From an uncultured virus (IMG/VR IMGVR_UViG_2061766007_000922) (lineage: Duplodnaviria; Heunggongvirae; Uroviricota; Caudoviricetes): a stretch of 64,000 nt of DNA. A model generated the notes under the pieces. It made no database searches. It saw only the letters and a program-made list of their open reading frames with translations, and was not told where the DNA came from. The first letter of the stretch is position 1. The number at the start of each line of letters is the position of its first letter. Made by a program: the position numbers and the translations under genes. The stretch lies in IMG/VR virus record IMGVR_UViG_2061766007_000922; one strand, given 5' to 3'. This document shows positions 3,994-34,460 of the stretch, in pieces.

Positions 3994-3999
3994 GTGAGC

Positions 4000-4056: not shown

Positions 4057-4090
4057 TGAATTTAATTAAATTTGCCCCCCNNNNNNNNNN

Positions 4091-6734: not shown

Positions 6735-7418
6735 ATGCCTTACAACAGACAAATACCCGATGCACCTATTGCTGGGTCCATGTTGCCCCGGCCCACGGCC
6801 CTAACCGCCCAGGACCTCTTGCTGCTAATCCAGCCCGGTAATAACCTGGGCCAAAAGAATAAGGCCCTAGAGTTGGGAGCACTGTTTAGTTCGGACTTGT
6901 TCAAGTTCGCTGGGCTCTACAATTCTCTAATCAAGTCTAATATCCTGGACTACTCCGGGGCACTTGCTTCTGCGTCTGCTAATTCGTTCACGGAGGTTTG
7001 CCACCTTGATGTAGACCCAAGAATGGATGTGGAGTTTCATGTTTGGGGAACATCCGACCAGGCAGGANNNNNNNNNNNNNNNNNNNNGCTGCGGGCTAAA
7101 ACCCGTCAAATGTATTTACCGGATGACCAGGACTGGGACCTGGTTGCCTTTGGCGGGTATGCCGGGAGAAAAGACTCGGACGGGGGACCTAATGCCCCAG
7201 CCTACAACGCGGTCTTTGGACTATATCCTATCAACTACAACCCGTCCGCAAACGACCTTGCTAACCACCCGACCAAACGGGTCACGTTGTTCCTGGCTGC
7301 TGGGGCAACTGTGAACCCTTTTCACGCCACCATCCCATCTGAGTTCAGCCTTAAAATCCAGGCCACAATTTTCCCAAGCAAGTATGTGAGCAACATTCTT
7401 GAGGCCGCCACCCCGTAA
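6735..7418 (+). CDS. Hypothetical tail-associated protein, allele 1
   Basis: RBS aaagga; strongly similar to 7446..8066; both end ATP* followed by identical ggtttaaaga. Confidence 0.6.
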   Translation: MPYNRQIPDAPIAGSMLPRPTALTAQDLLLLIQPGNNLGQKNKALELGALFSSDLFKFAGLYNSLIKSNILDYSGALASASANSFTEVCHLDVDPRMDVEFHVWGTSDQAGXXXXXXXLRAKTRQMYLPDDQDWDLVAFGGYAGRKDSDGGPNAPAYNAVFGLYPINYNPSANDLANHPTKRVTLFLAAGATVNPFHATIPSEFSLKIQATIFPSKYVSNILEAATP

Positions 7419-7445
7419 GGTTTAAAGANNNNNNNNNNAAGCCCT

Positions 7446-8066
7446 GTGGCGTCCGACTTGATTTATATAGCAAAGCCGAACGCCCCTATCAGGCAAAGAA
7501 GCAAGGCGGTTGAACTTTCTGCGCTTTTTGGAAGTGACCCCGCGAAATATGCCCCTAGGATAATTTGTTCTAATATCCTGGAATATTCCGGCGCGTTGGC
7601 GGCGACATCTACTGCATCACCACTTACGGAAGTTGCGCACGTCGATATTGACCCGCGTCTCGATGTTCAGTTCCATGTTTGGGGAACTTCGGACCCGGCT
7701 TCGGATGGTTCGGAATACAATACTTACTCGTATGGCTTGCGGGGCCGCGTGCGTATGATGTATCTGCCGGACGACCAGGACCGCGACCTTATGGCGATAG
7801 CTCCTTCTGGCTTTCGAAATTCGGACGGCTCAGGACCTGCACCGACTTATAACGCGTTCTTTGGGTGCTTGCCGTTCGATTATTCCCCGTCTCCGAACGA
7901 TCTGCTCCATTATCCTACAAAGCGTGTGACTTTGTTTTTGTCCAGCGGAGCTACTGAAAGTCCGTATCATGGAACCGAACCCTCATCTTTTGCGCTAAAT
8001 ATACAGGCGACGATTTTCCCGCGACAGATTGACACCACAATTTTAAAAGCCACCGCCACCCCGTAA
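7446..8066 (+). CDS. Hypothetical tail-associated protein, allele 2 (5' truncated by gap)
   Basis: Shares SNIL(D/E)YSGALA, FHVWGTSD, MYLPDDQD, PTKRVTLFL, IQATIFP with the previous ORF. Confidence 0.6.
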   Translation: MASDLIYIAKPNAPIRQRSKAVELSALFGSDPAKYAPRIICSNILEYSGALAATSTASPLTEVAHVDIDPRLDVQFHVWGTSDPASDGSEYNTYSYGLRGRVRMMYLPDDQDRDLMAIAPSGFRNSDGSGPAPTYNAFFGCLPFDYSPSPNDLLHYPTKRVTLFLSSGATESPYHGTEPSSFALNIQATIFPRQIDTTILKATATP

Positions 8067-8075
8067 GGTTTAAAG

Positions 8076-8456
8076 ATGGATATAACAGGCATCGACATAG
8101 CCGCAGTCGCGGGCTTGGTAGGAACGACGGGTACCGCCATCGTTTCCATCGTCAAGGCGGTCCAGGCGTCCCGAAAAGCTGGTGACGCGGACCGGCGTGC
8201 TCTCGACATCGAGCTCGCCCGCGAAAAGACTAAACGCGAACGCGACCAGGAATTGCAGTCGCTCAAGACCGAGGTCGCCGTTCTCAAGGCTTTACAGGAC
8301 GAAACGAACAAGCGGCTCGCCGAAGGTACGGACCAGTTCAAGGCGCTCGACGACAAGGTGGACAAGACGAACAGCCTGCTCCACGAAATTTTGGGCGCTC
8401 TCAATAACCGGGGGTTCGACGTTTCTAGGAAATCCGGGAACGGGGGGAACTTCTAG
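8076..8456 (+). CDS. Membrane-anchored coiled-coil protein (holin-like), allele 1
   Basis: N-terminal hydrophobic helix plus coiled coil; lysis-module position. Confidence 0.5.
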   Translation: MDITGIDIAAVAGLVGTTGTAIVSIVKAVQASRKAGDADRRALDIELAREKTKRERDQELQSLKTEVAVLKALQDETNKRLAEGTDQFKALDDKVDKTNSLLHEILGALNNRGFDVSRKSGNGGNF

Positions 8457-8458
8457 CC

Positions 8459-8826
8459 ATGAAGCGCCGGCTGCATGAATACGGCCTGCGGGTGCTCGAT
8501 TTTGAGTTCATCCAGGGCCGCGAAATTCTCGAAGGCTTGAAGCTGAACAAGGCCCGGCGCTATCCGTTCGGCGGTGTCGTCGAGGGCCGCATCTACACGA
8601 ACCAGGGCACCCTGTACTTCAAGACGGAGCTCGGGTTCGAGTGCGACATGCGGAGCGGCCCGAAGCTGGTCGACTGGTATGTGCCGAACCTGGGCACGCT
8701 CGAGGAACGTATCGCGTGGCTGGTGCATGACTTGAACGGGTACGGGCTCGACCTGTCCTTCGAAGACACGAACCTGCTGCTCTTCGCGATGCTCCGGGAC
8801 CTGGCAAAGTACAGGTACCCGAAGGC
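8459..8826 (+). CDS. DUF1353-like protein, allele 1 (truncated by gap)
   Basis: GFECDMRSGP..AWLVHDLNGY..EDTNLLL pattern. Confidence 0.55.
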
Positions 8827-8836
8827 NNNNNNNNNN

Positions 8837-9136
8837 GTGCGCAAGGCGGAAGCCGCAGACGCCCGCGCCATAGCCATAGAACTGCAACGGGAGCAGGCAA
8901 AGAAGGACCGCGACCGGGAAATTGAAAACCTAAAGTCCGAAGTAAAGGTGCTCCAGCACGAAAACAAGGAAGTGCGGGAGCGCTTGAGCGAAGGGAACGG
9001 ACACTTTGTGCGCCTAGAAGGCGAGGTCAAGGAAACGAACGGCCTGCTCCGTGAAATTATCGGGGCGCTGCGGAACAAGGGGCTTGTGATTTCCGAAACG
9101 CACAAGGTTGCACGCGACGCGGGGCTGGAACTATGA
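8837..9136 (+). CDS. Holin-like coiled-coil protein, allele 2 (5' truncated)
   Basis: RKAEAADARAIAIELQRE..RLSEG..TNGLLREIIGALRNKG parallels 8076..8456. Confidence 0.55.
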   Translation: MRKAEAADARAIAIELQREQAKKDRDREIENLKSEVKVLQHENKEVRERLSEGNGHFVRLEGEVKETNGLLREIIGALRNKGLVISETHKVARDAGLEL

Positions 9137-10127: not shown

Positions 10128-12386
10128 TTAGAAAAGTTCGTCGCCGCTTGCTTCCAGCGTCCGTTCCGCGCTTTCCAGGTTCTTCACCGCCTGCCGGAAA
10201 TAACTTTCCTTCAATTCGCAGCCAACGAACTGGCGCCCCATGGGCACGGCGCAGTATCCTTCGCTTCCAATTCCCATGAACGGGCTGAAAACAAGGTCGC
10301 CTGGCTTGCTCCAAAGTTGCAGGGCGCGTTCAATTACGTCAAGTTGCAGCGGGCAAATGTGCTTTTCGTCCTTTTCCTCGCGTGCGCTTTCCTTTTGCAG
10401 CGTGCGCGAAGCCCTAATGTCCATCCACACCGGGCTGGCGTAGCGCTGCCAAATTTCAATGGAATTTCGCGTCTTGTCTGCACCAAGTTCGGGCGGGTTT
10501 TCACCAACGAAACGGGTAAGTTCGCCTTCAATGCGGTCGGCGTTTTCGCCCGGCTTGCGCATGGTCACAAGGTAGTCGGGTATTCCGTTTCGGGAAATGG
10601 AACTGTCCTTTACAAGTTGCTTGTGCAGCAGGCCGATGGCCTTCGTGCGCTGCATGGCGGTCACCGGGTCCTTCCAAATGGTGACCTCGCTATGGTAAAT
10701 CCACCCGCATTCCGTGAAGAGCCGGATAAGTTCGCCACGGAAATCGCTAATGCCAATGAAGCCGTCCCGCGCCTTTGTGGTGGGCAGGTTCATGCAGTGG
10801 AACGAAACAAGCCTGCCCGGCTTTGTTATGCGGAAAAGTTCCCTTACAATGAAGCGGAAGTGTTCAATGAACTGGTCCGTGGTGTCGCAGTTGCCAAGGT
10901 CGCGCACGGAGTTGGAATAGGTGTAAAGGCTTGCAAACGGCGGGCTGAAAATGCTGAAGCCCACGGAATTGTCCTGCATTTCCTTGATAAGTTCGCAGGT
11001 GTCCCCCAGGTACGCGGTGTAGTTCTTGCCCCTTGCGCATTCTTGCATATACGTGTCCTCCATTTTGGCGGTTTTGTTTAGGTTCGTGTTTATGGTGCAG
11101 TTCGCAATCATGCAGTCCAGCATCTTCTTGAAGTTTTCGCCCTTGCGCACAATGTTCTCAAAAACAAAGCGCTCCTCGTTAGCCATTACAACCTGCACCG
11201 CCACCGGGCAGCGCTGCCCGAAGCGCCAGCACCTGCGGACGGCCTGGTAGTACATTTCGTAGGAATGGGAAACGCTGGAAAAGATTACGTTGTGGCAATT
11301 CTGCCAGTTCATGCCGAACCCGGCAATGGAAACCTTCGTGATAAGCACGCGGTACTTGCCGGAGGCGAAGCCAAGCAGGCGGTCAATTTTTGCGTCTTCC
11401 TGGGTTGACCCCGCAACCTGCACGGCGCCGGGAATAAGGCGCTCCAGCATGTCGCCTTCCTCGTTGCGTTCGCACCACACAAGGAACTGCTCCCGGCTTG
11501 CGTTCACAATTTCCGCAACCCTTGCGGCGCGGGCTTCCAGGCTTGCCTTCTTGATTTGCGAAAGTTCCGAAAGCGAGCAGTTGGTCACGAACAAGTCGTC
11601 GCTTTCCAGTTTTATTCCGGCGTCCACGTAAACCGGGTCCACCCGCAGTTCGGGCAGGTTGTACCCTTCCGCGCTATACCCAATTTCGGCGGGGTTCTTG
11701 AACATGACCGCCCAACTTGCAATCCACTTCCAAAATTCGTCCTCGGCGTGCCCCTTTATTGTCCACTTGCTTGTTTCCCCGCCATCGTGGAAAAAGAACT
11801 TTGAAAGCATACATTCGCGGGTCATTACCCCAAGGAACTCGGCATGGTTGCCCAGTTCCATGTAGTCGTTCGGGCTGGGCGTTGCGGTGCAGGCCAACTT
11901 GAACGGGGTTTTTGCGAACGTTTCAATTATTAGGGTGCGCATCTTGCCGTCAAACGATTTCAAAATGCTGCTTTCGTCCAGCACCACCCCGGCAAATTCT
12001 TCCGGGTTGAACTTTGCGATTTGCTCGTAGTTGGTGATGGTGATTTTGCCCTTCTTTTTTCCGTCGCGGGAAAGCAGCACGTCAATTCCGTACTTTTTGC
12101 CCTCGGCTATTGTCTGCTCGGCAACCGCAAGCGGGGAAACGACCAAGACGTCCCCCCCACTGGGGTTGTTTGCAACCTGCCAAGCCCACTGCAACTGCAT
12201 CATCGTCTTGCCAAGGCCGCAATCGGCAAAAATGGCGGCTTTCCCCAGGCGCAGCGCCCAGCGGACGACATCGTGCTGGAACTTGAACATTTGCGTCCCG
12301 TTCTGCGGAACAAGCGCCTCGTCAATTTCAAAGCCCACGGGCTTAAATTCAATGCTTTTGGATTTCAAAAATTCGGTATATTCCAT
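10128..12386 (-). CDS. SNF2-like helicase fused to beta-class N4/N6 DNA methyltransferase
   Basis: DCGLGKT, LDESS, TATPSPND, QAVRRCWRFGQ; then FSPPF and SPFMGIGS; ends GDELF. Confidence 0.85.
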   Translation of the reverse strand: MEYTEFLKSKSIEFKPVGFEIDEALVPQNGTQMFKFQHDVVRWALRLGKAAIFADCGLGKTMMQLQWAWQVANNPSGGDVLVVSPLAVAEQTIAEGKKYGIDVLLSRDGKKKGKITITNYEQIAKFNPEEFAGVVLDESSILKSFDGKMRTLIIETFAKTPFKLACTATPSPNDYMELGNHAEFLGVMTRECMLSKFFFHDGGETSKWTIKGHAEDEFWKWIASWAVMFKNPAEIGYSAEGYNLPELRVDPVYVDAGIKLESDDLFVTNCSLSELSQIKKASLEARAARVAEIVNASREQFLVWCERNEEGDMLERLIPGAVQVAGSTQEDAKIDRLLGFASGKYRVLITKVSIAGFGMNWQNCHNVIFSSVSHSYEMYYQAVRRCWRFGQRCPVAVQVVMANEERFVFENIVRKGENFKKMLDCMIANCTINTNLNKTAKMEDTYMQECARGKNYTAYLGDTCELIKEMQDNSVGFSIFSPPFASLYTYSNSVRDLGNCDTTDQFIEHFRFIVRELFRITKPGRLVSFHCMNLPTTKARDGFIGISDFRGELIRLFTECGWIYHSEVTIWKDPVTAMQRTKAIGLLHKQLVKDSSISRNGIPDYLVTMRKPGENADRIEGELTRFVGENPPELGADKTRNSIEIWQRYASPVWMDIRASRTLQKESAREEKDEKHICPLQLDVIERALQLWSKPGDLVFSPFMGIGSEGYCAVPMGRQFVGCELKESYFRQAVKNLESAERTLEASGDELF

Positions 12387-16742: not shown

Positions 16743-16840
16743 CTCCTTGCTAATTGTTAATTGCTTATGACCTTAATATAGCATTTATTTGCTAGATGTG
16801 CAAGTGATTTTTTAAATTTTTATGTAAAAATTTTGTTTAC
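16743..16840 (-). promoter_or_regulatory. Repeated early promoter/leader cassette, copy A
   Basis: UP-like A/T tract, TTGCAC-17-TATATT, leader AAGCAATTAACAATTAGCAAGGAG. Confidence 0.85.
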
Positions 16841-16842
16841 AT

Positions 16843-17591
16843 TCATCGGCGGTGCCCAACCACCCAAAGCAAATCGCCCGGCTGCATGAACGGCACGCAC
16901 TTGGCCTCGTAAATTGGGTCAAGTTCCACGCCGCAAAGGCTTGTTTCCGCCGGGGCGTCATGGTAGTCCAGCGGGCTGGCAACCAGTTCAAAATCAACCT
17001 TGCAGCCCAGGAAGGGCTGGTAAAACTTTTCAAGGTTCTTGAGCGAGCGCCTTCCAACCTGGACGCCAAGGACGCGCACGTCGTAGCGCCGGAAAAGCGT
17101 GAGCCCGTTAAGCACGCAGGCCATGGACATTCCGCTGCCAAACGGCACGACAACGCGCCGGACGCCCTGGGGAACGTTTTGCGCCTGCTGCATGGTTGTC
17201 TTGACGTTTTCGGCGCATTCCATTCCGAAAGGAACGTAAAAGAGCCCGTTCTCCTTCGCGTATTCCCTGGCGTGCGCCGCGATGACGTTATTGTAGCCAA
17301 CCCTTTGAACCACCACCTGGGAAAACGTGTTTTGCGAAATGGTTTTTAGGACGCTTGTTTCCCTGCCCCGTGGCATGAACAAGAAGCACGGCACGCGCAG
17401 GGCTTCGCAAATGCAGGAAACAATTTCGCACTGCGGGCTTTCCCTTGCGCCTGCGGTTGCAATGCCCTTGAAGCCCTGCGCAAGCGCCTGGGAAATAAGT
17501 TGGAAGGCGGCTCGTGCCTTCCCCCCCTGGCGCCGTAAACTTCAAAAAGGTCGCCGCGCCGTTCAACCGGGGTCAGTTCTTCAACGTTCAT
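16843..17591 (-). CDS. PLP-dependent fold-type II enzyme (ACC deaminase/D-cysteine desulfhydrase-like), frameshifted at a G7 tract
   Basis: LTPVE; GGKAR once one G is added at 17521-17527; SPQ, VPFGSGMS, ELDPIYEAK. Confidence 0.75.
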
Positions 17592-17600
17592 TTTTGCCGC

Positions 17601-18938
17601 CTAGTCAAAGTTATCAAAAACCTTTTCAAAGCCCACGGCGTCTTCCGCCTCGGCTTCCGCCGCTTCCCACTTTTCAATCACCATTTCGCGCAGGCGCCTG
17701 CGGGCTTCGGGGTCGGAACCGCAAAGGGCGCGGAGTTCGTCGCGGGTCATTTTGCGCCCGAACTTTGCCCCGTATTCTTCCGGGCACGCCGGGGCTTCCA
17801 CAACGCTTCCATCTTCGGCCTTAATGCCAAGCGCCGCCCACTGGTAAACGACGTCCAGGTTCACGGCGCGGCGCCCGATTACCTTGTAGGCAAACTCCTT
17901 GTATTCCGCCATCTTCCCGGTGTCGTTCAACCAGGAGGTCACGGCCTTCAAATCCGGCATGGCGCCGCCCCAACTTACTTCATCGCTCACAAGGTTGCCA
18001 TCCTTGTCGCGCAGGTTGTAAAGGAAGTCAATATTTGAGCCAACGTTGTCAATTCCACGGGTGAAATAAACCACGTAGTAAACCTCGCGCCCCGGCCTTT
18101 CGGTTCGCGCCTTATTCTTTGTGCGTGCCCGCACCACGCTGCCAATCCACTTCCCGCCAACTTCAATTTTTCTAATTAGCGCAAGGTCCAGGATGGTGTG
18201 GCAATAGTATTTCAAGGAATAGCCGCCCGTGACCGTCTTCTGCCCAGGTATGGGCGAGCCAATTTTGGCGCGGTACTGGCTGGTCAAAATAAGGAGGCAG
18301 TTTTTGCGTTCCAGTTCGTCAACGTGGTCGGCAAAGAACGCGGAAAGGGATTTTTGCTTGCCCATGTTGTAGGAGCCCTTGTTCACCACTTCCTTTCCCT
18401 GCACCAGTTTGGAAAGGCGTTCCTGCATGGCTTCTTCCGCCCCGGCGTCCTTAACGCTGTCCAGGCTGTCCTGGGCGTAAATGGCATATTCGTCGTCCTT
18501 AAGGCCGGAAAGGAAAAGGGAAACGTGCGCGTCCATTTCCTGGACGGTGGTGGAGTGGTGGAAGGTAATGGTTGCGGGCTTAAGCGTTCCGCGCTCGCCC
18601 TTTACAAAGCCGGAAAGCGGCTTGCCTTCGCTGCTAATTTCAAAGCCGTACAATTTCGGGCAGTCAAACTTGTTCCCGTTTTCGCCGTCGCTATTAAGCC
18701 AGCGGAACTTCTTGGGGTTGCGGTAATGGTTGGCGGCAATCATTTCGTTAATTACAAAGGATTTGCCCGCGCCGCTGTCGCCCCAAACCCCCAAAATGGT
18801 TCCGGCTTCCAGGCCGTACGTCTTGGCCTTGCCGCCAAGCAAAATATCAAGCAGGTCGCAGCCCGTGCGGATGCGCGGGTGTTCCTGCGCGGCTTCCGGT
18901 TTCTTTGTAAGTGCGGCTTCCAGTTTCTTGTCCTTCAT
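17601..18938 (-). CDS. RecA/UvsX-like recombinase
   Basis: RTGCDLLDILLGG, GDSGAGKS, QDSLDS, ILTSQYR, TGGYSLKYY, KNK. Confidence 0.85.
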   Translation of the reverse strand: MKDKKLEAALTKKPEAAQEHPRIRTGCDLLDILLGGKAKTYGLEAGTILGVWGDSGAGKSFVINEMIAANHYRNPKKFRWLNSDGENGNKFDCPKLYGFEISSEGKPLSGFVKGERGTLKPATITFHHSTTVQEMDAHVSLFLSGLKDDEYAIYAQDSLDSVKDAGAEEAMQERLSKLVQGKEVVNKGSYNMGKQKSLSAFFADHVDELERKNCLLILTSQYRAKIGSPIPGQKTVTGGYSLKYYCHTILDLALIRKIEVGGKWIGSVVRARTKNKARTERPGREVYYVVYFTRGIDNVGSNIDFLYNLRDKDGNLVSDEVSWGGAMPDLKAVTSWLNDTGKMAEYKEFAYKVIGRRAVNLDVVYQWAALGIKAEDGSVVEAPACPEEYGAKFGRKMTRDELRALCGSDPEARRRLREMVIEKWEAAEAEAEDAVGFEKVFDNFD

Positions 18939-19009
18939 TTTAAAACTCCGTTATGCGTTAAAAGGGGCGCCCGTTTGTTGCAGGCGCCCCGTGGCTTTAA
19001 ATTGTACCT

Positions 19010-20227
19010 TTAGCGGCTTGCCCTTTCGCACTGGGCATATTGTGCGCAGTTGCAGCACTTGCGGCTTGTGGAAAAGTCCCTGCCGAACTGCAACCCGGCG
19101 TGGCAACCGCCTTGAGCCGGGGCGGCTGCGGGCTGCGGCTGCTCGCTGGGGAACGTGCGCTGCGGTTGCTGCGAATACGGGTCGCGGGCAAAGTCTTCTT
19201 CCGTGAGCGGACCGCCCGGAGCGGCGGGGCTGCTGCGGAAGCCCGTGGGAGCCTGCTGCGGCTGCGGTGTCGGAGGCGGCGCGGCCTGGAAGCCAGCGGG
19301 CTGCGGCTGGGCGTAGTGCGTGGCGGGCTGCGCGGCCTGGCGGAAGCCGCCCTGCTGCCCCTGCAAGGATTGTTCGCAGGCGCGTTCAAATTCTTCCTGC
19401 CTTTGCTCCTCGGTGTATGCCTGCGCGGGCGCCTGGGTGGCAGCGGGTGCGCCGGAGTTGTACGGGTCGGGCTCGCCGCCGTTCATGACGCGCTCCATTT
19501 CTTCGTAGGTGCCAAAGTTCAAAACTTCATTCCAGGGCACGCAGCGGTCGTAAAGTTCGTCCGCCGGGAGTTCCCTGCGCGGGAAAAAGTTCACGGCGCT
19601 GGCGGAATAGTATTCGTGCCCGCCGAAGGTGTCCTTTGCGGTGTTCACCTTCACAATTCGCCCGTCCTCGTTGGGGCTTGCAAAAGGAATCGGCAGGTTG
19701 CCTTCGCTCATTGCGGTGGCCTGCGCCATCAAGCGCTGGGGGAACGCGGCTTCGCCCTTCTGCTTGGCGGCGCATTCATGCAGCAAAATGTCGCTGGTGT
19801 TTTCCGGGTTCATGTAGTAAAGGACGCGGTCCTTGGGAATGAACGGCTTGATGCGGTCCCAGTTTTCGCCGCCCTTGCTGCCGTCGTCCAGTTGTTCCTT
19901 GCGTTCGCAGCACGGGCACGGCTTGCCGATAATCTTGAGGCAAGGGTACTGGTGCGGGTGCTTGGGGTCTGCCAGGTTGGGCAATTCGTGAACGGGAACC
20001 GCCTTGTAAAACTTGTATCCGGTATCGTCCGGGTCGGTTGCGTTGTTTTTTGCCAGGAGGATGTTGAAGCGCTCTTCCTTTTCGGTCCACTTGTGCCCCT
20101 TAATGCCACGGGGAAGGTGGAAGTAGGAACGCGAGCGGTTGTTGCTTTCGCTGGCTTCGCCACGGCTAACGGCTGCGGCGTGGGAGAACTGGTTGCCGAG
20201 GTTTACCCCGGAGCGGTTAAATGCCAT
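19010..20227 (-). CDS. gp32-like single-stranded DNA-binding protein with Gln/Pro/Ala tail and Cys-rich end
   Basis: H..CLKIIGKPCPCCE Zn motif; adjacent to recombinase; strong RBS. Confidence 0.65.
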   Translation of the reverse strand: MAFNRSGVNLGNQFSHAAAVSRGEASESNNRSRSYFHLPRGIKGHKWTEKEERFNILLAKNNATDPDDTGYKFYKAVPVHELPNLADPKHPHQYPCLKIIGKPCPCCERKEQLDDGSKGGENWDRIKPFIPKDRVLYYMNPENTSDILLHECAAKQKGEAAFPQRLMAQATAMSEGNLPIPFASPNEDGRIVKVNTAKDTFGGHEYYSASAVNFFPRRELPADELYDRCVPWNEVLNFGTYEEMERVMNGGEPDPYNSGAPAATQAPAQAYTEEQRQEEFERACEQSLQGQQGGFRQAAQPATHYAQPQPAGFQAAPPPTPQPQQAPTGFRSSPAAPGGPLTEEDFARDPYSQQPQRTFPSEQPQPAAAPAQGGCHAGLQFGRDFSTSRKCCNCAQYAQCERASR

Positions 20228-20334
20228 AGTAGGCTCCTTTTGTTGGTCTAGTCTAGGATTTGGTTTAGGTCTAGGTTAAAGTAAAAAGCACACCGGAACT
20301 TCCGGCGTGCTATATTATAGCAAAACGTGCGCAA

Positions 20335-20808
20335 CTACTTTTTCATGCTTTCCTGGGTGGCGCGTTCAACGGCTTCCGTTTGGGTTTCCAGTTTGGTGTC
20401 CGGTGCGCAGTCGCCCGAAATCATTGTGAACTTGGAAAGCACCAGGGCGCGTTCGTTTTCAATGCTGTCGCGCTTGTGGCGCATGGCTTCAACGGCGCTT
20501 TTAAGTTGCCCCAGGTATTCTTCCGCGTCCAAAATTTGCGCCTTAATTGCACGCAGTTCCGGGTCGGTTTCAATTTGGCAGTCCACTTCGTCCTGCACCA
20601 TTTTGATTTTTGCGGCTGCGGCGTTTGCGCGAATTTCAATCTTGCGCTGCGCGGTCTTGTAGGAAAGTTCGTTCTTAAGCCTTGCAACCACGCTTTCCTG
20701 GCGTGCGGCTTCCCCGGCATAGTGCTCAAAAAGGCTGGCCTGGGTAAGCACCGCGTCTTCCAGGTGCGTGCGGCTTAACTGGAAATGTTCCGCTTTAACT
20801 TCAATCAT
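20335..20808 (-). CDS. UvsY-like recombination mediator
   Basis: Helical protein LEDAVLTQASLF..AVEAMRHKRDSIE next to SSB and RecA. Confidence 0.55.
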   Translation of the reverse strand: MIEVKAEHFQLSRTHLEDAVLTQASLFEHYAGEAARQESVVARLKNELSYKTAQRKIEIRANAAAAKIKMVQDEVDCQIETDPELRAIKAQILDAEEYLGQLKSAVEAMRHKRDSIENERALVLSKFTMISGDCAPDTKLETQTEAVERATQESMKK

Positions 20809-20818
20809 GGGGAACCCC

Positions 20819-21094
20819 CTATTCGTCCAGCGCGGCCTTGATGCGGATGTTGAGGTGGAACTTGTAGTTGCACATTGCCTCCAACTGCTCGGCAATCGTT
20901 TTCTTGTCCGCAGCGTTGGGCGTTGCCTTGTATTCCTGCTCGGCTTCGGCAATGCGGTCGCAAAGGAAGTCGCGCTCCTTTGCAAGTTTGACCACGCGCT
21001 CGCCGTTGGTGGGTGCGGACTTCAACGAATCAAAAAATTCGGCGATGGACTTTGGGGCGTCCGGGTTCTTTTTTGTGGTTTTCTTTGTTGCCAT
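20819..21094 (-). CDS. Hypothetical protein (crAss001_48-like pattern)
   Basis: ERDFLCDRI..EQLEAMCNY..LNIRI. Confidence 0.45.
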   Translation of the reverse strand: MATKKTTKKNPDAPKSIAEFFDSLKSAPTNGERVVKLAKERDFLCDRIAEAEQEYKATPNAADKKTIAEQLEAMCNYKFHLNIRIKAALDE

Positions 21095-21264
21095 GTTGTT
21101 TTTCCTTTTTGGTTTATTGTGAATTTTCGTTTTTGGGCTTACGCGGCTTGTACGGTCCGCGCTTTTTGTGTCTGCGGTAGTATGTGCGCTCCTCGTGGCT
21201 TGGGTGTATATGCCGAACGGAAACCGGGGCGCCCTTTAGCGCTTCAAGCATTTGGCGCACTGGT

Positions 21265-21630
21265 TCAAGCGGTTGCGACCTTTTCACCAAACGCCTCCAG
21301 CAACCTGGCTTCCGCGAAGTGAACCGCGCCGGGCAGGTGCAGGCTTGCAACCATGCGGCAAAGTTCGGGGGAAAGCCTGGTTTTAAGTCCGGGCTGCTCC
21401 AGGTACCGCTTCAAGTACCTTTCCAGGCGGTCAATGTACTCTTCGTCCACCAGGGGCAGGAAGCCGCGTTGCTTGTATGCCTTAATGGTTTCGCAAAGGA
21501 GCCGCTTGTATGCCGGGCGGTCTTCTTCCTTGCCTTCGCCCGCCGCGTACCTAAAAAGCAGCGCCTGGGCGTGCGGCATAAGCGATTCCAAAAGGAAGGC
21601 GTCAAGGGTGTACGGCTTCTCGGTTTTCAC
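21265..21630 (-). CDS. Hypothetical protein
   Basis: Overlapping start/stop with neighbour. Confidence 0.5.
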   Translation of the reverse strand: MKTEKPYTLDAFLLESLMPHAQALLFRYAAGEGKEEDRPAYKRLLCETIKAYKQRGFLPLVDEEYIDRLERYLKRYLEQPGLKTRLSPELCRMVASLHLPGAVHFAEARLLEAFGEKVATA

Positions 21631-21857
21631 GGCACCACCCCGGCGCTAATGCCAAATTCCGAAACCAGGATTTCGGAAATCCGTTCCTTAAGCCTATCAA
21701 CTTCCCCGGCGCTTGGCTTGTGCCCGGTGTAGTTTTCCAGGAGGCGTTCGGCAGCATCTTCCGCGTCCAGCGGCGCGGTGTCGCAGTCGGGAGCGGTGTC
21801 GCAGTCGGGATAAAATACGTGTCCACACGCGGGGCACTCAATTTCTTCGTCGGGCAT
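21627..21857 (-). CDS. Small hypothetical protein with CPACG motif
   Basis: RBS aaggag; follows promoter at 21951. Confidence 0.55.
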   Translation of the reverse strand: MPDEEIECPACGHVFYPDCDTAPDCDTAPLDAEDAAERLLENYTGHKPSAGEVDRLKERISEILVSEFGISAGVVP

Positions 21858-21967
21858 TTTTCAACTCCTTGTAAATAGTAGCCCGCCGGGGTTGTGTTAT
21901 GGCGTTAGTTTGTGTGTCAAACTAGCATGAAGAACCCGGCGGGCTGGTTTATTATAGCAAAGTGCGT

Positions 21968-22312
21968 TTAATCGCAAAGCGCCATCATGCGCAGGGCAAC
22001 GGCGGCAACCTGGGCGAGTTCCTGCTTGCAGTGCTTCTTATCGCCTTCCAGCCACGCCGTGCGTGCTTCCGCAAGTTCTTCCAGCAGAATGCGGTCGGCA
22101 AAGAACGGGGCTTCCTCGTTCTTGCGCTTAAGAACGCGCTCGTCATACCTTGCATGAATTAGTGTTTGCTGCGTAAACTTGTCGCAGAACTTTGGGTGCT
22201 TTTCAAACGCCAGGCGCAATTCGTCCAGCACCATTTCCACGCTTTTGTCCACCCCTAAAAATTCGTTCTTTACAAAAATTTCCGGCATTCCGTTTCCCTC
22301 CGCTTGGTTCAT
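21968..22312 (-). CDS. MazG-like all-alpha NTP pyrophosphatase-like protein
   Basis: ILLEELAEA..ELAQVAAVALRMM. Confidence 0.5.
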   Translation of the reverse strand: MNQAEGNGMPEIFVKNEFLGVDKSVEMVLDELRLAFEKHPKFCDKFTQQTLIHARYDERVLKRKNEEAPFFADRILLEELAEARTAWLEGDKKHCKQELAQVAAVALRMMALCD

Positions 22313-22638
22313 TCGTTTAACTTTTTGAATGCGCATTTCGCGCAGTATGCCCTTCGCGATACCATGAACTGGTCCGGGAAAAATACCGGGCTTGTGGTTT
22401 TGCCGCCGCACTGCGTGCAGGTGTAGAGCAAATCCTTAATTTTATGCGTTGGGGCTGGGCTTTCAATTTTCACACTTGTCATGGACGAAACGTGTTCAAC
22501 GCAGTAGTCAAAGCCGTCCTGCAAGCCCAAAAGGTAGGCCTTAATATATCCAAGTTTTTGCTCGGCGTTTTCCCAACCTTCCTTTTTGTCAATAACTTCC
22601 ACCAACTTGGCGGCAAGTTCCTTCACCTTGTTTTCCAT
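22309..22638 (-). CDS. Hypothetical protein with C-terminal zinc ribbon
   Basis: CTQCG..YCAKC. Confidence 0.55.
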   Translation of the reverse strand: MENKVKELAAKLVEVIDKKEGWENAEQKLGYIKAYLLGLQDGFDYCVEHVSSMTSVKIESPAPTHKIKDLLYTCTQCGGKTTSPVFFPDQFMVSRRAYCAKCAFKKLNE

Positions 22639-22639
22639 T

Positions 22640-22798
22640 TTAGCACCCCTTTATTAGTTTATACAAAAACAGACAAATGGAACCGACCCAAACAACAAAG
22701 GCGCAAAAGCCCATTATTGAAAAGGCTATTGCAATAAACCAAAGCCAGGCGTCTTCCAGCGCCCCGGCCTTCATTTTTAACTTGTGCAAAATTCCCAT
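22640..22798 (-). CDS. Small membrane protein (52 aa)
   Basis: Long hydrophobic stretch; stop abuts the next ATG. Confidence 0.4.
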   Translation of the reverse strand: MGILHKLKMKAGALEDAWLWFIAIAFSIMGFCAFVVWVGSICLFLYKLIKGC

Positions 22799-22870
22799 TT
22801 TTGGCTTCCTTTGAATTGCAGGGTTCTTTTTCGCGTCGCGGCCTGCACGGCGCGAAGAGGAAACCTGCCC

Positions 22871-22921
22871 CTACTTTTTGGGCGGCTTCTTGGTGCTGGG
22901 TGTTTTTGTTCCGCAGGCCAT
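22871..22921 (-). CDS. 16-aa basic micropeptide MACGTKTPSTKKPPKK
   Basis: Strong RBS aaaggagcaagac. Confidence 0.4.
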   Translation of the reverse strand: MACGTKTPSTKKPPKK

Positions 22922-22951
22922 GTCTTGCTCCTTTGTTTGTGGTTTAACGTG

Positions 22952-23467
22952 TTAAAGTTTTTCGCGCCTTGCCCATTCTGCAATCAAAAGTGCGTCCGCG
23001 TCTTTGTGCTTGCGAATGATTTGTTCGGTTGGTCCGCCGGGGTAAAGGCGGCAACCGATGTCAAGGCTTGCCTTCTTAAGTTCGTCGCCCTTGCAGCCGT
23101 GCGGCAAAAGCGCCTTTTGCCATGCGCGGCTGTCCACGTACATTCGCGGCAACCCCAGCCGTTCAATCACGCAAAGTGTGGCTTCCAGGCTGCGGGCTGC
23201 GCTTACGCTTGCGACGAAGCGCATGGGGTTAATCATGGGACGTTCAATTACTACCAGGCACTCCGCCGGGTTGCCAGTTCCAACCACGTCCGCCAGCAGC
23301 GCCTCCAGCCTGGGGGCGTCTATGCGGGTGATGTTTTTCTTTTCCCTGGTATAACTTTGTTCGCTTTTTACCGGGGTTTCCCAAATGCCGGGGCAAAGGT
23401 TTTCACCGACCCAACCAATAGTTCCGGTCACGCCGTTGTCAATTCCGATGTAAATTTTGTGAGCCAT
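22952..23467 (-). CDS. RuvC-like Holliday junction resolvase
   Basis: IYIGIDNG, VIERP, WQK, DADALLIAE. Confidence 0.75.
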   Translation of the reverse strand: MAHKIYIGIDNGVTGTIGWVGENLCPGIWETPVKSEQSYTREKKNITRIDAPRLEALLADVVGTGNPAECLVVIERPMINPMRFVASVSAARSLEATLCVIERLGLPRMYVDSRAWQKALLPHGCKGDELKKASLDIGCRLYPGGPTEQIIRKHKDADALLIAEWARREKL

Positions 23468-23469
23468 TT

Positions 23470-24342
23470 TTACTTCTTGAAAACTAAAATGTTTTGATGC
23501 AGTTTGACAAGTTTTTGGTTGTACATATTCCGCCGGGCACGAATTGCCGCAGTTCCGACCGAGTTCAAAAGAACGGCCTCGTTGTAGTAGTGCATTCCGG
23601 TTTCCATGAAGGCCTTAATTGTGTCCGGCACAAAACCAATATAATTCCCATTCTTGTCGCGTACTTCGCCAACCACAAAGCAGGCAAGCGCACCGGGCTT
23701 CAACTTGGCGCAGGCCTTTTTAATGATACTTCGGTACGCCTGCAAAAATTCCGGGTAAGGCATATTTGAAATGTCGCCTTCCAGTTCGCTATACACTTCT
23801 AGGTCTGCATAGGGCGGGCAACTGAACACAAAATCAAAACCGCCGTCAACCCCATCCAGCACCTTGTCGCTGTCACCACAAATCCACTCGGGCATGGTTC
23901 CACGTTTACAAATTTCCGCAGCCTGCTCGCGGTTGCTTTCCACCTGCTCCGGGCGAATGTCAATTCCGGTGTACTTAAAACCCAGGTGGCTGGCAACTAT
24001 GCCTCGCACGCTGCCACCAGCAAACGGGTCAAGGATTTTGCCGCCTTCCGGGCAGAACCACTTATAAAGAACTTCGCAAAGTGCAGGGTCAAAAATGGAA
24101 ATTCCTTCGTTGATGTCACCGTTTTTAATGCCGTACTTTTCGCCGAAACTGGTGTGCATACACTTGGCGTCGCGCCCAGCTTCGCTCTTTATGCCAAGCG
24201 TTTTCCAAAGGTTTGCGCGGTCGCGCCAGGAGCCGCTTTTTGTGTCAAGCACGCTAAACGGGGGCTCAATGAAATCGTCGCGCAGAATTGCGTCGGCTTC
24301 AATGGGGTTTCCAAAAACATCGTATTCTTCAAATTTTGCCAT
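23470..24342 (-). CDS. SAM-dependent amino-DNA-methyltransferase-like protein
   Basis: PPFSVLD, SIFDPALCE, LDPFAGGSVRG (motif I), FSCPPY (motif IV). Confidence 0.8.
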   Translation of the reverse strand: MAKFEEYDVFGNPIEADAILRDDFIEPPFSVLDTKSGSWRDRANLWKTLGIKSEAGRDAKCMHTSFGEKYGIKNGDINEGISIFDPALCEVLYKWFCPEGGKILDPFAGGSVRGIVASHLGFKYTGIDIRPEQVESNREQAAEICKRGTMPEWICGDSDKVLDGVDGGFDFVFSCPPYADLEVYSELEGDISNMPYPEFLQAYRSIIKKACAKLKPGALACFVVGEVRDKNGNYIGFVPDTIKAFMETGMHYYNEAVLLNSVGTAAIRARRNMYNQKLVKLHQNILVFKK

Positions 24343-27038: not shown

Positions 27039-27386
27039 CTACACCCGCAGCGCCTTCCGCTGCCGTTCCACCGGGTCAAAGGCAATGGCCTCAAGTTCGC
27101 GCAGGTGCCCGCTTTCCTTTCCGTATTCGCCCGGCGCGGGTTCCTTGTTTTTTCCCCGGTACGAATAGTCCAGCCATTTCACCAGCACGCGCCACCCGCG
27201 CCCCTGCATTTCCCTAATGACGAGCGAATGGTACCAAACCAGGCAACCCCAGGAAAGGTTATAGTACCAAGTTTTTGCCGTTGGCTTTCCCCACGGGCGG
27301 GAACGCACGCGGCAAAGCGAGGCGTGCAGGGTTGAAAGTTTTTTGTCGGGGAGTTCTTGTAAAAGTGCAGGGTGCCAAAGCCTCAT
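27039..27386 (-). CDS. Pyrimidine-dimer glycosylase/endonuclease V-like protein (TIGR02328-like), catalytic Glu position substituted
   Basis: MRLWHPALLQELP..PWGK..YHSLVIREMQGRGW..WLDYSYRG; own RBS aaaggagg, although in frame with the upstream ORF. Confidence 0.65.
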   Translation of the reverse strand: MRLWHPALLQELPDKKLSTLHASLCRVRSRPWGKPTAKTWYYNLSWGCLVWYHSLVIREMQGRGWRVLVKWLDYSYRGKNKEPAPGEYGKESGHLRELEAIAFDPVERQRKALRV

Positions 27387-28562
27387 TTCCGGCCTCCTTT
27401 GTTGCATATCAAACCGGTCTCGCCATACGTTCCAGCAGGGAAAGGTTGGTTGGTTTGTTGCCCCGCATTGGTTGCCCGGTAATTGTTGCACATCAAAATG
27501 CAATTTATAACTATGTCTTCTTTTACCATTTGCAGTTTGTTCTGCAACAATTATTTTTTCCGAATTTTGCGTTGTTTCGGCGGGTTTTGCGGGTTTCCGC
27601 CCGCGTTTTGGCTCCGGGCAGGCTTCAAAAAGTTCCTTGTGGCGGCTTTTGAAGCAGGTTTCCGCCCTGGTAAGGGCTTCTCCGCGCAGCAACTTTTCCC
27701 GCAGCGCCTGCGCCCGGTTCATGGTGCTTTCAAACGTCCCGCGTTCCCTGGCTTCCCGGCGTATTTCCGAAAGTTCTTCCTTTTGCCACGGACTAATCAC
27801 CACCTCGCCCGTTTCGGCGTCGTAGTACCTGCAAAGGAGTTTCAAAATGGCGCCCGCAGCGCCCTGCTTTAGACGGTCGTTCGCTCCAATCCAGCGCCAA
27901 ACGAACGCTTCCTGCTCGCCCCTTGTGGGGAGTTCCGCAATGCCCGCGTCCACAATTTGCTGGGCAATTTCGCGCCGCGCCTTCCGGTCGCTCCACCCCC
28001 TGCGCCTGCTGCGGCAATCGTAGCCCGGCATATTTACAACAATTCGCTCCGCAGCCCCAAGGCCTGCCCGGTTTAGCGGGCGCCAGGTTGCCCCGAGGTG
28101 GTTTTTAACAACCCCGAAGAAGTCCTGGGCAAGCGTGCCGATTTTCCTTATGGTTTCCCGGTCGTTTAGGTTGGAGTAGTGTTCAAGTTCGTCCTCCACC
28201 CGCAGCCGCACGGCGTCCCGGTTTAGCAGGCGCCCGGTCACAAATTCCGCAAGCAAGCCCTGCCAAACGCAGGAACGCACCAGTTTCATCATCGCCAGGT
28301 GGCTGAACCTGCACACCTGCAACTTTCCGTCCGTTTTCTTGAACCAGTGCTTGAAGTAGCAGGTATATTCGTCGTGTTCCGTGCGGACCCCTTCGTGCCA
28401 TAACTGGGTCGTGCAGGGCGATTTTTCAAGCCCGTTTTCGTCCCAACTTGCAACGACTTCGTCGCACTTTAGCGTCCTTTTAAGTTCTTCAACGCGGAAG
28501 CGCAGCCGCTCCGCCGCTTCCTGCCACAACTGGGCGGAAACGCAAGTAATCAAGGCCTTCAT
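27387..28562 (-). CDS. Hypothetical (possibly replication-related) protein, in frame with the downstream endoV-like gene
   Basis: Long ORF, first gene of the leftward arm. Confidence 0.5.
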
Positions 28563-33676: not shown

Positions 33677-34460
33677 ATGGAAATTAAAGGAAAGGTTCAT
33701 TGCTTCTTTGAACAAAGCGGCACATTCAAGAACGAATTTATCAAGTTGGGCATACCTGCGGAAGATTACGACATACAAAACAACTTCGGGCAAACCGACC
33801 ACACCGATGACCTATTTGCCGAAATAGAAAAGGCGTGGGAAAATAAACCTAGTATTTTTGATAACATAACAAAGGACGACCTAATTGTGGCGTTCTTCCC
33901 GTGCATCAAGTTCTGCAACATTGCGGAATATAATCAACGCAGTGCCCAGGAGCATTTAAGGCGAATCGGTAAACCAATAAAGGATATATATATATCTTAA
34001 GAAGGAAAGTGATGAAAGGTACTTTTTTTATCAAAAGTGCTTAAAACTGCATGGCATTGTGGAAATGCGCGGGCTTCGGATGATTATGGAAAACCCGTGG
34101 AATGAAACAAATTATACAAACTATTTTTGGTTCAAAAATGTGTCCCTCATAGATAGGGATAGAACGCAGCGCGGGGATTTTTTCAAAAAGCCTACCGGAT
34201 ACTGGTTTACGAACTGCGAACCTACAAATGGGTTTTCTTACCAGCAAACACCAAAGGAAAAAATTAGGAACACGGATATTGGATACTGGAAGAAAAAACC
34301 AAATTCAAAGCCTAAAAATTTGAGGGCAAAAGGTAGTTCGGAAGCAGGCTTGTGCAGCGAAGAACGCTCAATGATTAGCCCGGACTATGCAAGAAACTTT
34401 ATTTGCGACTTTATACTTGGCAAGGAGCAGGGGACGCCGAAGGAAGTGGAGTTGTGGTAA
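33677..34460 (+). CDS. C5-cytosine methyltransferase-like protein, frameshifted at (AT)6
   Basis: HCFFEQSG, AFFPC (PC motif), MENP, KKPT; the two halves join across 33984-33995; AT-rich. Confidence 0.65.

What the first reader, a model, noticed from the sequence alone, without database searches (positions are those of the whole stretch)
16843..24342. PLP enzyme plus atypical methylase-like protein: candidate undescribed DNA hypermodification pathway
Seen: an ACC-deaminase-like PLP enzyme (GGKAR Lys, PFGSGMS, LDPIYEAK) directly after the recombinase, and a CPPY MTase-like gene with an unusual PPFSVLD/SIFDP N-terminus. Two further MTase-like genes, MazG-like and DUF3310 genes are also present. 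Known: PLP enzymes tailor amino-acid-modified thymidines in phages such as ViI and M6, and some Rossmann MTase homologs transfer the aminocarboxypropyl group of SAM. No hmdU synthase, kinase or amino-acid transferase is recognisable here. Inference: the MTase-like enzyme may add a SAM-derived aminocarboxypropyl group to a base, which the PLP enzyme then decarboxylates or deaminates.
Basis: inference. Interest (0 to 1): 0.7.

Follow-up and report, generated by a model that had tools for sequence, protein, structure and literature searches.

The report
Phage methylase-like enzyme with PLP partner
A rumen phage carries the two separated halves of a widespread, apparently undescribed phage module (a DNA-methylase-like enzyme plus a vitamin-B6 enzyme related to known trimmers of amino acids attached to phage DNA) that probably puts a new kind of mark on DNA, although the B6 gene is damaged in this copy.

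Summary
Both genes are real. The methylase-like gene (23470-24342, minus strand) is intact. The PLP gene (16843-17591, minus strand) is not. It is frame-broken at a G7 run and lacks 7 residues that include two invariant ones.

Of the 120 listed longer homologs of the PLP protein, 115 also carry this methylase-like domain, in at least three fusion topologies. 16 of 18 viral loci with the PLP gene also hold the methylase-like gene. The reverse is not true: only 2 of 79 loci with the closest methylase relatives hold the PLP gene.

The PLP protein belongs to the family of Salmonella phage ViI gp226 and is related to Pseudomonas phage M6 gp52. Both are proven PLP decarboxylases of amino acids tethered to phage DNA. 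In two PLP-free phages the methylase-like gene overlaps a SAM-decarboxylase gene.

Best reading (about 0.45): an aminocarboxypropyl group from SAM is put on a base amine and then decarboxylated to aminopropyl. The chemistry is untested.

My literature searches found no description of this module. This scan noted it twice before on other DNA.

The parts
16843..17591 (-). PLP (PALP-fold) gene of the ViI gp226 family (phrog_3650), damaged. The ATG is at 17591. The frame breaks in the G-run. The downstream frame is open from 17541 to 16846, with the stop at 16843-16845.
   Evidence: three-frame translations and DNA; PF00291 6.3e-12; phrog_3650 3.4e-27; P0001, 256 aa, 99% identical, intact.
17521..17527 (-). 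G7 homopolymer at which the reading frame breaks. G8 restores the frame.
   Evidence: sequence; contigs of three runs (X4, X6, X8) have one more G and one run (X5) has one fewer.
17549..17550 (-). Site of a 21-nt in-frame deletion that removes YWFKRDD. These residues form strand E15-19 of the model and include the invariant K18 and D21.
   Evidence: P0001; invariant columns; model; the 21 nt are present in X5, X6 and X8 and absent in X4, a run from the same sample as the source; a KRDD-like motif is present in 148 of 150 representatives.
23470..24342 (-). Intact methylase-like gene, 290 aa. It is an amino-methyltransferase fold with motif order X-I-II-III-IV, SCPPY as motif IV, and no ParB domain.
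   Evidence: two stretches permuted relative to 2zie; invariant residues; model pLDDT 84.5; Trm11/Trm14/TrmN, Z 18.4-18.7.
17601..18938 (-). RecA/UvsX-like recombinase directly upstream of the PLP gene (context only).
   Evidence: PF00154 9e-9; phrog_97 1.9e-23.
20287..20311 (-). Terminator-like hairpin (11-bp stem) between the methylase-like gene and the PLP gene.
   Evidence: This is a consensus scan only; the total number of such sites does not exceed the shuffled expectation.
16771..16804 (-). Promoter-like repeat (TTGCAC, 17 nt, TATATT) just downstream of the PLP stop. It is one of four copies in the window and marks the end of the operon that holds the PLP gene.
   Evidence: 4 matches; 0 expected in 100 shuffles.
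10128..12386 (-). SNF2-type helicase fused to a PF01555 DNA methylase.
   Evidence: PF01555 6.9e-17, Helicase_C 3e-9; phrog_16, phrog_67.
33677..34457 (+). phrog_757 DNA methyltransferase split into two ORFs (33677-33997 and 34059-34457). Not part of the module.
   Evidence: 7.1e-12 on profile positions 14-90; 2.3e-5 on positions 134-224; AT-rich spacer.

Best explanation
The two genes are the separated parts of a widespread two-enzyme phage module that modifies DNA bases beyond plain methylation.

Step 1 (inferred): the methylase-like enzyme binds SAM and a flipped-out base through its amino-methyltransferase site, (S/T)CPPY. It transfers the 3-amino-3-carboxypropyl end of SAM, not the methyl group, to an exocyclic amino group.

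Step 2 (inferred from homology to enzymes with shown activity): the PLP enzyme forms a Schiff base with the free alpha-amine of that tethered amino acid and decarboxylates it. This leaves a positively charged 3-aminopropyl group on the base. The order could be reversed, with decarboxylation of SAM first and aminopropyl transfer second.

In some PLP-free phages a pyruvoyl AdoMet decarboxylase homolog would do the decarboxylation.

In this window the methylase-like gene is intact but the PLP gene is damaged, so this strain probably performs at most step 1.

My odds: the pair works together on DNA, 0.9. The PLP enzyme acts on a DNA-tethered or SAM-derived amino acid, 0.6. The full aminocarboxypropyl-to-aminopropyl route, 0.45.
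For: Fusion:
- A search for longer homologs of the PLP protein found 145 proteins.
- Of the 120 listed, I counted 104 with both PF00291 and PF01555 in the precomputed Pfam column.
- My own HMM finds a methylase-like segment in 115 of the 120. The topologies are 79 with PALP inserted between motifs II and III, 20 with PALP C-terminal and 4 with PALP N-terminal.
- Among the 150 best 50%-identity representatives, 93 are fused.
- Named examples: Pam4 gp70, Erythrobacter phage ZS04_7, and AlanGrant genes 1 and 2.

Co-occurrence:
- The methylase-like gene is present in 16 of 18 non-self viral loci that hold the PLP gene. L022 and L023 look like duplicates.
- It is present in 5 of 8 genome loci, plus 1 weak case.
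- The other recurrent neighbours are replication genes only.

Homology to shown enzymes:
- The window protein hits phrog_3650 at 3.4e-27.
- Cba120 orf228 hits the same family at 7.5e-242 and is 94% identical to ViI gp226.
- hhalign of A1 against ViI gp226 gives probability 98.65 and E 4.7e-16, with K32 aligned to K92.
- P0001 and P0053 hit the M6 gp52 family, phrog_7093, at 4.3e-10 and 8.5e-19 over nearly full length.
- Purified gp226 and gp52 decarboxylate O-seryl- and C-alpha-glycinyl-thymidine in DNA (PMC8989533, passages).

SAM end:
- An AdoMet_dc gene (PF02675, 1.6e-23) overlaps the 3' end of the methylase-like gene in Pseudomonas phage ZRG1.
- The same arrangement is found in Croceibacter phage P2559S.

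Other fused partners act on amines or amino acids: GNAT (P0190, P0217, P0321) and Asp/Arg-hydroxylase-like domains (P0133, P0327).

The catalytic residues of both proteins are conserved.
Against: - No chemical data exist for any member.
- The methylase-like protein has every canonical methyltransferase motif.
- No alignment column separates 109 PLP-linked from 85 PLP-free members.
- Only 2 of the 79 loci with the closest methylase relatives hold a PLP gene within 6 kb.
- In the family tree the window's methylase sits among PLP-free relatives.
- From my own recall, no PF01555-type enzyme or DNA enzyme is known to transfer aminocarboxypropyl.
- Phage AdoMetDC homologs can be arginine or ornithine decarboxylases (PMC10407285, abstract and passages).
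- AdoMetDC adjacency was seen in only 2 phages and in none of the other fetched loci.
- The PLP domain is also fused to SET domains in 2 proteins. That would fit a role tied to SAM or SAH itself.
- The structural neighbours of the PLP protein are deaminating lyases: D-cysteine desulfhydrase and ACC deaminase.
- In this window the PLP gene is broken.
Confidence: 0.45

Rival explanations
1. The methylase-like enzyme is an ordinary orphan phage DNA N6-adenine or N4-cytosine methyltransferase. The PLP domain serves methylation indirectly, for example by destroying the inhibitory product S-adenosylhomocysteine or by altering SAM. No new base is made.
For: - All methyltransferase motifs are present, and the sequence is the same in PLP-linked and PLP-free members.
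- 77 of the 79 closest loci lack the PLP gene.
- The family sits next to terminase genes like other packaging-linked methylases (PMC4738411 passages).
- The PLP domain is also fused to the unrelated SAM-using SET fold in P0303 and P0338.
- The nearest solved folds of the PLP protein are elimination/deamination enzymes that yield 2-oxo acids.
Against: - The PLP family is tied almost only to this one methylase family and not to the many other phage methylases.
- Its characterised relatives act on DNA-tethered amino acids, not on cofactors.
- From my recall, no PLP enzyme that degrades SAH is known.
- AdoMetDC adjacency is hard to explain for a plain methylase.
Confidence: 0.25
2. A base adduct is made, but the amino acid does not come from SAM. 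Another route supplies it, for example aminoacyl-tRNA or GNAT-type transfer, or PLP beta-replacement from a serine derivative. The methylase-like domain methylates separately or only holds the flipped base.
For: - Some PLP homologs are fused to GNAT, and one weakly to an LPG_synthase_C-type (aminoacyl-tRNA transferase) domain. One protein, P0160, has a degenerate methylase domain without motif IV but an intact PLP domain.
- The earlier scan note e1-5846765 reports a tRNA-type transferase beside the pair.
Against: - These extra partners are rare. I saw 3 GNAT fusions and 1 weak LPG_synthase_C.
- They are absent from this window and from the recurrent neighbours of 18 viral loci.
- The PLP protein belongs to the ACC-deaminase/gp226 branch, not the cysteine-synthase branch that does beta-replacement.
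Confidence: 0.12
3. This point concerns only this copy and is independent of the readings above. In this phage strain the PLP gene is a decaying remnant, so only the methylase-like enzyme is active.
For: - The 21-nt deletion removes a beta-strand with the invariant K18 and D21.
- The deletion is also present in an independent run of the same sample at depth 54 (X4).
- The G-run is 6, 7 or 8 long in different assemblies.
- The related protein P0003 (88% identical) is called only as a 169-aa C-terminal piece.
- The window's methylase groups with PLP-free relatives.
Against: - Contigs from three other studies carry the 21 nt, and two of them (X6, X8) also have the in-frame G8.
- P0001 and P0002 are intact.
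- The frameshift itself may be an assembly error, because X4 has G8.
- A protein without the 7 residues has not been tested.
Confidence: 0.5

Closest known systems
Salmonella phage ViI gp226 (YP_004327553.1) and Pseudomonas phage M6 gp52 (YP_001294560.1): PLP-dependent decarboxylases of amino-acid:nucleobase conjugates in DNA (PMC8989533)
   Same: - Same PHROG as gp226, phrog_3650.
- hhalign probability 98.65, with the Schiff-base lysines aligned.
- Near full-length match to the gp52 family.
- Short phage-specific PALP proteins, modelled on the same template, 1j0a.
   Different: - About 254 aa against 424 aa for gp226.
- The partner genes here are not a 5-hmdU kinase and aGPT-Pplase but a SAM-binding methylase-like enzyme, often in the same polypeptide.
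- No hydroxymethyl-dU pathway is visible.
- The substrate and the target base are unknown.
ParB-methyltransferases of phage ParB-terminase loci, for example Listeria phage B054 gp77 and Enterococcus phage phiFL3A gp36 (family noted in PMC4738411)
   Same: - The methylase domain is homologous, 49-50% identical over 96-97% of the protein.
- Same motif order and the same (S/T)CPPY motif.
   Different: - The window protein has no ParB domain and is not next to the terminase gene.
- These relatives have no PLP partner.
- I found no experimental product for the family.
ACC deaminase and D-cysteine desulfhydrase (PDB 1f2d, 1j0a, 4d8t)
   Same: - Best solved folds (TM 0.77-0.80).
- The PLP lysine, the serine loop and the DPxYExK motif are shared. 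The Y-E pair is as in ACC deaminase, whereas the desulfhydrase has Y-T.
   Different: - About 80 residues shorter.
- Phage-specific: the ESM Atlas clusters are 76-100% viral.
- Fused to a DNA enzyme.
- The characterised phage relatives decarboxylate rather than deaminate.
tRNA guanine-N2 methyltransferases Trm11, Trm14 and TrmN (PDB 5e72, 3tlj, 3tma)
   Same: Best structural matches of the methylase-like model (Z 18.4-18.7, 176-182 residues aligned, rmsd 2.2-2.8). They have the same motif order and a PP(Y/F) motif IV directed at an exocyclic amine.
   Different: - 17-21% identity.
- They carry RNA-binding THUMP-type N-terminal domains that are absent here.
- The window family is phage-borne, often ParB-fused, and scores as a Pfam DNA methylase.
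M.EcoGIX and M.BceJIII, plasmid single-strand-specific adenine methyltransferases found beside ParB homologs (PMC7736820)
   Same: They are orphan anti-defence DNA methyltransferases of mobile elements.
   Different: They are classical beta-class enzymes with DPPY (passages). They do not belong to this permuted (S/T)CPPY family and have no PLP partner.

Membership tests
phrog_3650 / ViI gp226-type PLP decarboxylases acting on DNA-tethered amino acids | Significant profile match to the family that holds gp226 | tested here: met
   Window protein 3.4e-27; P0001 2.5e-31; Cba120 orf228 7.5e-242, which is 94% identical to ViI gp226; hhalign probability 98.65.
phrog_3650 / ViI gp226-type PLP decarboxylases acting on DNA-tethered amino acids | Schiff-base lysine and phosphate-binding glycine loop | tested here: met
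   K32 aligns with gp226 K92. GGK and GSGMS are invariant or nearly so in 39 sequences. Both are present in the window's downstream frame.
phrog_3650 / ViI gp226-type PLP decarboxylases acting on DNA-tethered amino acids | Intact open reading frame in this window | tested here: not met
   Frame break at the G7 run and a 7-residue deletion.
phrog_3650 / ViI gp226-type PLP decarboxylases acting on DNA-tethered amino acids | Gene neighbourhood with 5-hmdU DNA kinase and aGPT-Pplase | tested here: not met
   No such family among the window ORFs scanned or among the recurrent neighbours in 18 viral loci. The partner is the methylase-like gene.
phrog_3650 / ViI gp226-type PLP decarboxylases acting on DNA-tethered amino acids | Decarboxylase activity on a DNA-bound amino acid | not testable with these tools
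   Needs enzyme assays.
ACC deaminase / D-cysteine desulfhydrase | Fold type II with the K51, S78 and Y294-E295 equivalents | tested here: met
   alignments to 1f2d and 4d8t; TM 0.77-0.80.
ACC deaminase / D-cysteine desulfhydrase | Full-size enzyme of about 325-342 residues acting on a free substrate | tested here: not met
   The family is 245-280 aa when stand-alone and is mostly fused to a DNA enzyme.
N6/N4 amino DNA methyltransferases (Pfam PF01555) | Pfam score above the gathering threshold | tested here: met
   42.8 bits against 26.7, but only profile positions 168-218, the motif I part.
N6/N4 amino DNA methyltransferases (Pfam PF01555) | Motif IV (D/N/S)PP(Y/F) | tested here: inconclusive
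   The motif is SCPPY, with cysteine in the first position. C175 is invariant in 34 sequences. One relative, phiCTP1 gp51, has SPPY.
N6/N4 amino DNA methyltransferases (Pfam PF01555) | Beta-class order (motif IV before motif I) | tested here: not met
   Here motif I (residues 102-111) precedes motif IV (175-178). The two matched stretches are swapped relative to 2zie.
ParB-methyltransferases of phage ParB-terminase loci | Homologous methylase domain | tested here: met
   49-50% identity to B054 gp77 and phiFL3A gp36; phrog_498 8.2e-72.
ParB-methyltransferases of phage ParB-terminase loci | N-terminal ParB domain and a position next to the terminase gene | tested here: not met
   No PF02195 in the 290-aa protein. 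The terminase large subunit lies at 46128-47453.
SAM-dependent aminocarboxypropyl transferases (Tyw2, Tsr3 and TapT types) | Sequence or fold relationship to a known aminocarboxypropyl transferase | tested here: inconclusive
   None appears among the 50 rows shown by either fold search. Absence from a top list does not exclude a relationship.

The most novel reading that the evidence does not exclude
The whole (S/T)CPPY methylase-like family is a family of DNA aminocarboxypropyl (or aminopropyl) transferases. The family has at least 530 relatives in viral contigs. Its hosts include Listeria, Enterococcus, Clostridium, Mycobacterium, cyanobacteria and haloarchaea. Under this reading, N-aminocarboxypropyl and N-aminopropyl purines or cytosines are a widespread, so far unseen class of phage DNA modification. 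PLP decarboxylase, AdoMet decarboxylase, acetyltransferase and oxygenase would be interchangeable tailoring steps.
Probability: 0.35. Interest if true: 0.9.

Novelty: new variant of a known kind. Interest (0 to 1): 0.7.

Why it matters
Known amino-acid-derived phage DNA hypermodifications all start from 5-hydroxymethyl-pyrimidines. Here a relative of their PLP decarboxylase is welded to a SAM-dependent amino-methyltransferase-like enzyme in hundreds of diverse phages. That points to a second entry route, in which SAM supplies more than a methyl group, and to a new adduct on an exocyclic amine.

If true, this would add a new base or bases to natural DNA chemistry. It would explain a large family of 'orphan methylases'. 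It would also matter for restriction evasion, for reading phage DNA by nanopore or PacBio sequencing, and for enzymatic DNA labelling.

The test is direct: one or two genes, E. coli expression, and nucleoside mass spectrometry.

Tried and rejected
- Nucleotide search of the 7.5-kb region against phage records: no match.
- Whole genome of the window: none is held.
- AdoMetDC homologs in all other fetched loci and in the window: none. The fecal fragment L118 has AdoMetDC but no methylase-like gene within its 4.3 kb.
- Columns that separate PLP-linked from PLP-free methylase-like sequences: none at the thresholds I used.
- M.EcoGIX and M.BceJIII were considered as characterised relatives and rejected. 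They are the DPPY beta class.
- The portal gene split was considered as a sign of homopolymer errors and rejected. It is caused by a run of N at 47870-47879.
- A third constant partner gene near the pair was sought. The recurrent neighbours are DNA polymerase A with a UDG domain, sliding clamp, clamp loader, DnaB and primase, that is, a replication module.
- Ten literature searches, plus passages of PMC8989533, PMC5463345, PMC9382816, PMC13219725 and PMC13458397: none describes a PLP-methylase fusion or aminocarboxypropyl or aminopropyl DNA. Subscription-only papers and supplements were not seen.
- A Foldseek search of the methylase model did not rank DNA methylases first. That is expected for a permuted fold, and I draw nothing from it.

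Full report
**What is in the window.**
- The window is a scaffolded phage genome. It has capsid, portal, terminase, tail and baseplate genes on the plus strand from about 45 kb, and replication and recombination genes on both arms.
- Contigs of bovine gut metagenomes from 12 studies hold the stretch.
- The genes between about 10 kb and 28.5 kb read on the minus strand.
- The finding spans two genes, from a PALP-fold gene (16843-17591) to a 290-aa methylase-like gene (23470-24342).
- Between them lie a RecA/UvsX-like recombinase, a 405-aa protein with no family hit, small ORFs, and a RuvC-like resolvase (phrog_1770).

**The PLP gene is damaged.**
- Its ATG (17591) and the frame that carries GGKAR, PFGSGMS and LDPIYEAK differ by one base at a G7 run at 17521-17527.
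- A 99%-identical metagenome protein, P0001 (256 aa), is intact. It shows that the window also lacks seven residues, YWFKRDD.
- In an alignment of 39 family members, K18 and D21 of that stretch are invariant. A KRDD-like motif is present in 148 of 150 representatives.
- The stretch forms strand 15-19 of a confident model with pLDDT 92.2.
- I laid public contigs on positions 17300-17700:

| Run | Relation to the source | G-run | 21 nt present |
|---|---|---|---|
| X4 | same sample, another run, depth 54 | G8 (frame restored) | no |
| X6 | other study | G8 | yes |
| X8 | other study | G8 | yes |
| X5 | other study | G6 | yes |

- So the frameshift is an assembly error or a slippage variant, but the deletion is real in the source population.
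- A further relative, P0003, is called only as a 169-aa C-terminal piece.

**The methylase-like gene is intact and typical of its family.**
- Pfam PF01555 matches only its motif I part.
- phrog_12517 (7e-94) and phrog_498 (8.2e-72) match nearly all of it.
- The motif order is X, I, II, III, IV. This is permuted relative to the beta-class structure 2zie.
- Motif IV is SCPPY.
- The 'unusual' PPFSVLD and SIFDP motifs are invariant family features.
- The model (pLDDT 84.5) is closest to the tRNA guanine-N2 methyltransferases Trm11, Trm14 and TrmN (Z 18.4-18.7). These are enzymes aimed at exocyclic amines.
- Relatives in cultured phages are mostly ParB fusions beside terminase genes. This fits the ParB-terminase locus methylases described in PMC4738411 (passages read).

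**The two families are functionally coupled.**
- A search for longer homologs of the PLP protein gave 145 proteins.
  - Of the 120 listed, I count 104 with both PF00291 and PF01555.
  - My HMM finds a methylase-like segment in 115 of the 120.
  - In 79 the PLP domain is inserted between motifs II and III. In 20 it follows the methylase domain, and in 4 it precedes it.
- An exhaustive profile search found 445 representatives at E 1e-30 or better. Of the best 150, 93 are fused.
- Pam4 gp70 and Erythrobacter ZS04_7 are cultured examples. AlanGrant genes 1 and 2 are adjacent.
- Of 18 non-self viral loci found with the PLP profile, 16 hold the methylase-like gene. It is fused, adjacent or up to 9 kb away. 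L022 and L023 look like duplicates.
- Of 8 genome loci, 5 hold it clearly and 1 weakly.

**The coupling is one-sided.**
- At least 530 viral stretches encode the methylase-like family. Among the 79 loci closest to the window's gene, only 2 have a PLP gene within 6 kb.
- I built a tree of 194 sequences. Of 223 hits, 29 that covered fewer than 230 of the 277 profile columns were dropped.
  - PLP linkage is clustered: 22 changes against a mean of 64.6 in 200 shuffles.
  - It is not one clade, and the window's gene lies among PLP-free relatives.
  - Sampling was biased, because the fused rows came from the PLP search and the free rows from the methylase search.
- No alignment column separates the 109 PLP-linked from the 85 free sequences.

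**What the PLP enzyme is.**
- By sequence and fold it is nearest to ACC deaminase and D-cysteine desulfhydrase.
- More telling, it belongs to phrog_3650.
  - Cba120 orf228 matches that family at 7.5e-242.
  - orf228 is 94% identical to ViI gp226.
  - The family profile aligns to gp226 with probability 98.65 and E 4.7e-16, with K32 on the predicted Schiff-base lysine K92.
- Family members also match the M6 gp52 family, phrog_7093, over nearly full length, at E 4.3e-10 to 8.5e-19.
- Lee et al. (PMC8989533; I read the passages found for PLP and for methyltransferase) purified both proteins.
  - They showed that gp226 and gp52 decarboxylate O-seryl-thymidine and C-alpha-glycinyl-thymidine in DNA.
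  - They do not mention methylase fusions.
- ESM Atlas clusters of the family are 76-100% viral.

**A second hint at the amino-acid end of SAM.**
- In Pseudomonas phage ZRG1 and Croceibacter phage P2559S, which lack the PLP gene, an AdoMet-decarboxylase homolog overlaps the 3' end of the methylase-like gene.
- It was not found in the other loci.
- Phage homologs of this enzyme can act on arginine or ornithine (PMC10407285).
- Rare further fusions of the PLP domain are to GNAT, Asp/Arg-hydroxylase-like, SET, DUF3102 and DUF3109 domains.

**Reading.**
- Shown: the genes, the lesions, the fusions, the co-occurrence and the homology to gp226 and gp52.
- Inferred: that the methylase-like enzyme supplies the tethered amino acid, most simply the aminocarboxypropyl group of SAM, and that the PLP enzyme decarboxylates it to aminopropyl.
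- The main rival is a plain methylase with a PLP helper.
- In this strain the PLP step is probably lost.

**Novelty.**
- Ten full-text searches found no description of the module.
- Two earlier notes of this scan on other genomes describe what seems to be the same module.
- One of those notes named gp226 and gp52 as closest known. I tested that here.

Noticed in passing
window 16771-16804 (-), 37713-37746 (+), 42870-42903 (+), 43566-43599 (+): Four copies of a conserved element of about 90 nt. It contains a near-consensus promoter (TTGCAC/T, 17 nt, TATATT), a shared leader and an AAGGAG ribosome-binding site before an ATG. Each copy points in the direction of local transcription. This is probably a phage promoter class.
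   Followed up: partly
window 17521-17527: The G-run in the PLP gene is 6, 7 or 8 bases long in assemblies from different rumen samples. This could be slippage-driven on/off switching, or sequencing error.
   Followed up: partly
window 47870-47879: A run of N (a scaffold gap) splits the portal gene into two ORFs (47471-47902 and 47796-48974).
   Followed up: yes
window 33677-33997 and 34059-34457: A phrog_757 DNA methyltransferase is split into two ORFs by an AT-rich 60-nt spacer. It could be a split gene, a pseudogene or an insertion remnant.
   Followed up: no
L029:1042-2884 (Pseudomonas phage ZRG1); L117:2527-4168 (Croceibacter phage P2559S): An AdoMet-decarboxylase homolog with an intact ESH self-cleavage motif overlaps the end of the ParB-methylase-like gene in two unrelated phages.
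   Followed up: partly
proteins P0303, P0338, P0160, P0133, P0327: Odd architectures of the PLP domain. Two are fused to SET domains. One (P0160) is fused to a ParB-methylase whose motifs I and IV are degenerate. Two are fused to an Asp/Arg-hydroxylase-like oxygenase.
   Followed up: partly
window 3667-8837 compared with L004 (IMG/VR contig, otherwise 100% identical): The viral-contig copy lacks or replaces three segments of the window (about 8169-8836, 6767-7438 and 4081-6238) in the tail-fibre region. These may be variable cassettes or assembly differences.
   Followed up: no
window 27039-28562 (-): A 507-aa protein whose last 70 residues match the T4 endonuclease V-type pyrimidine-dimer glycosylase family (PF03013, 2.8e-9). 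The large N-terminal part has no family hit.
   Followed up: no
L010:8218-11025 and relatives (11 of the PLP-bearing loci): The family A DNA polymerases of these phages carry an N-terminal uracil-DNA-glycosylase-superfamily domain (PF03167, 2.1e-36).
   Followed up: no
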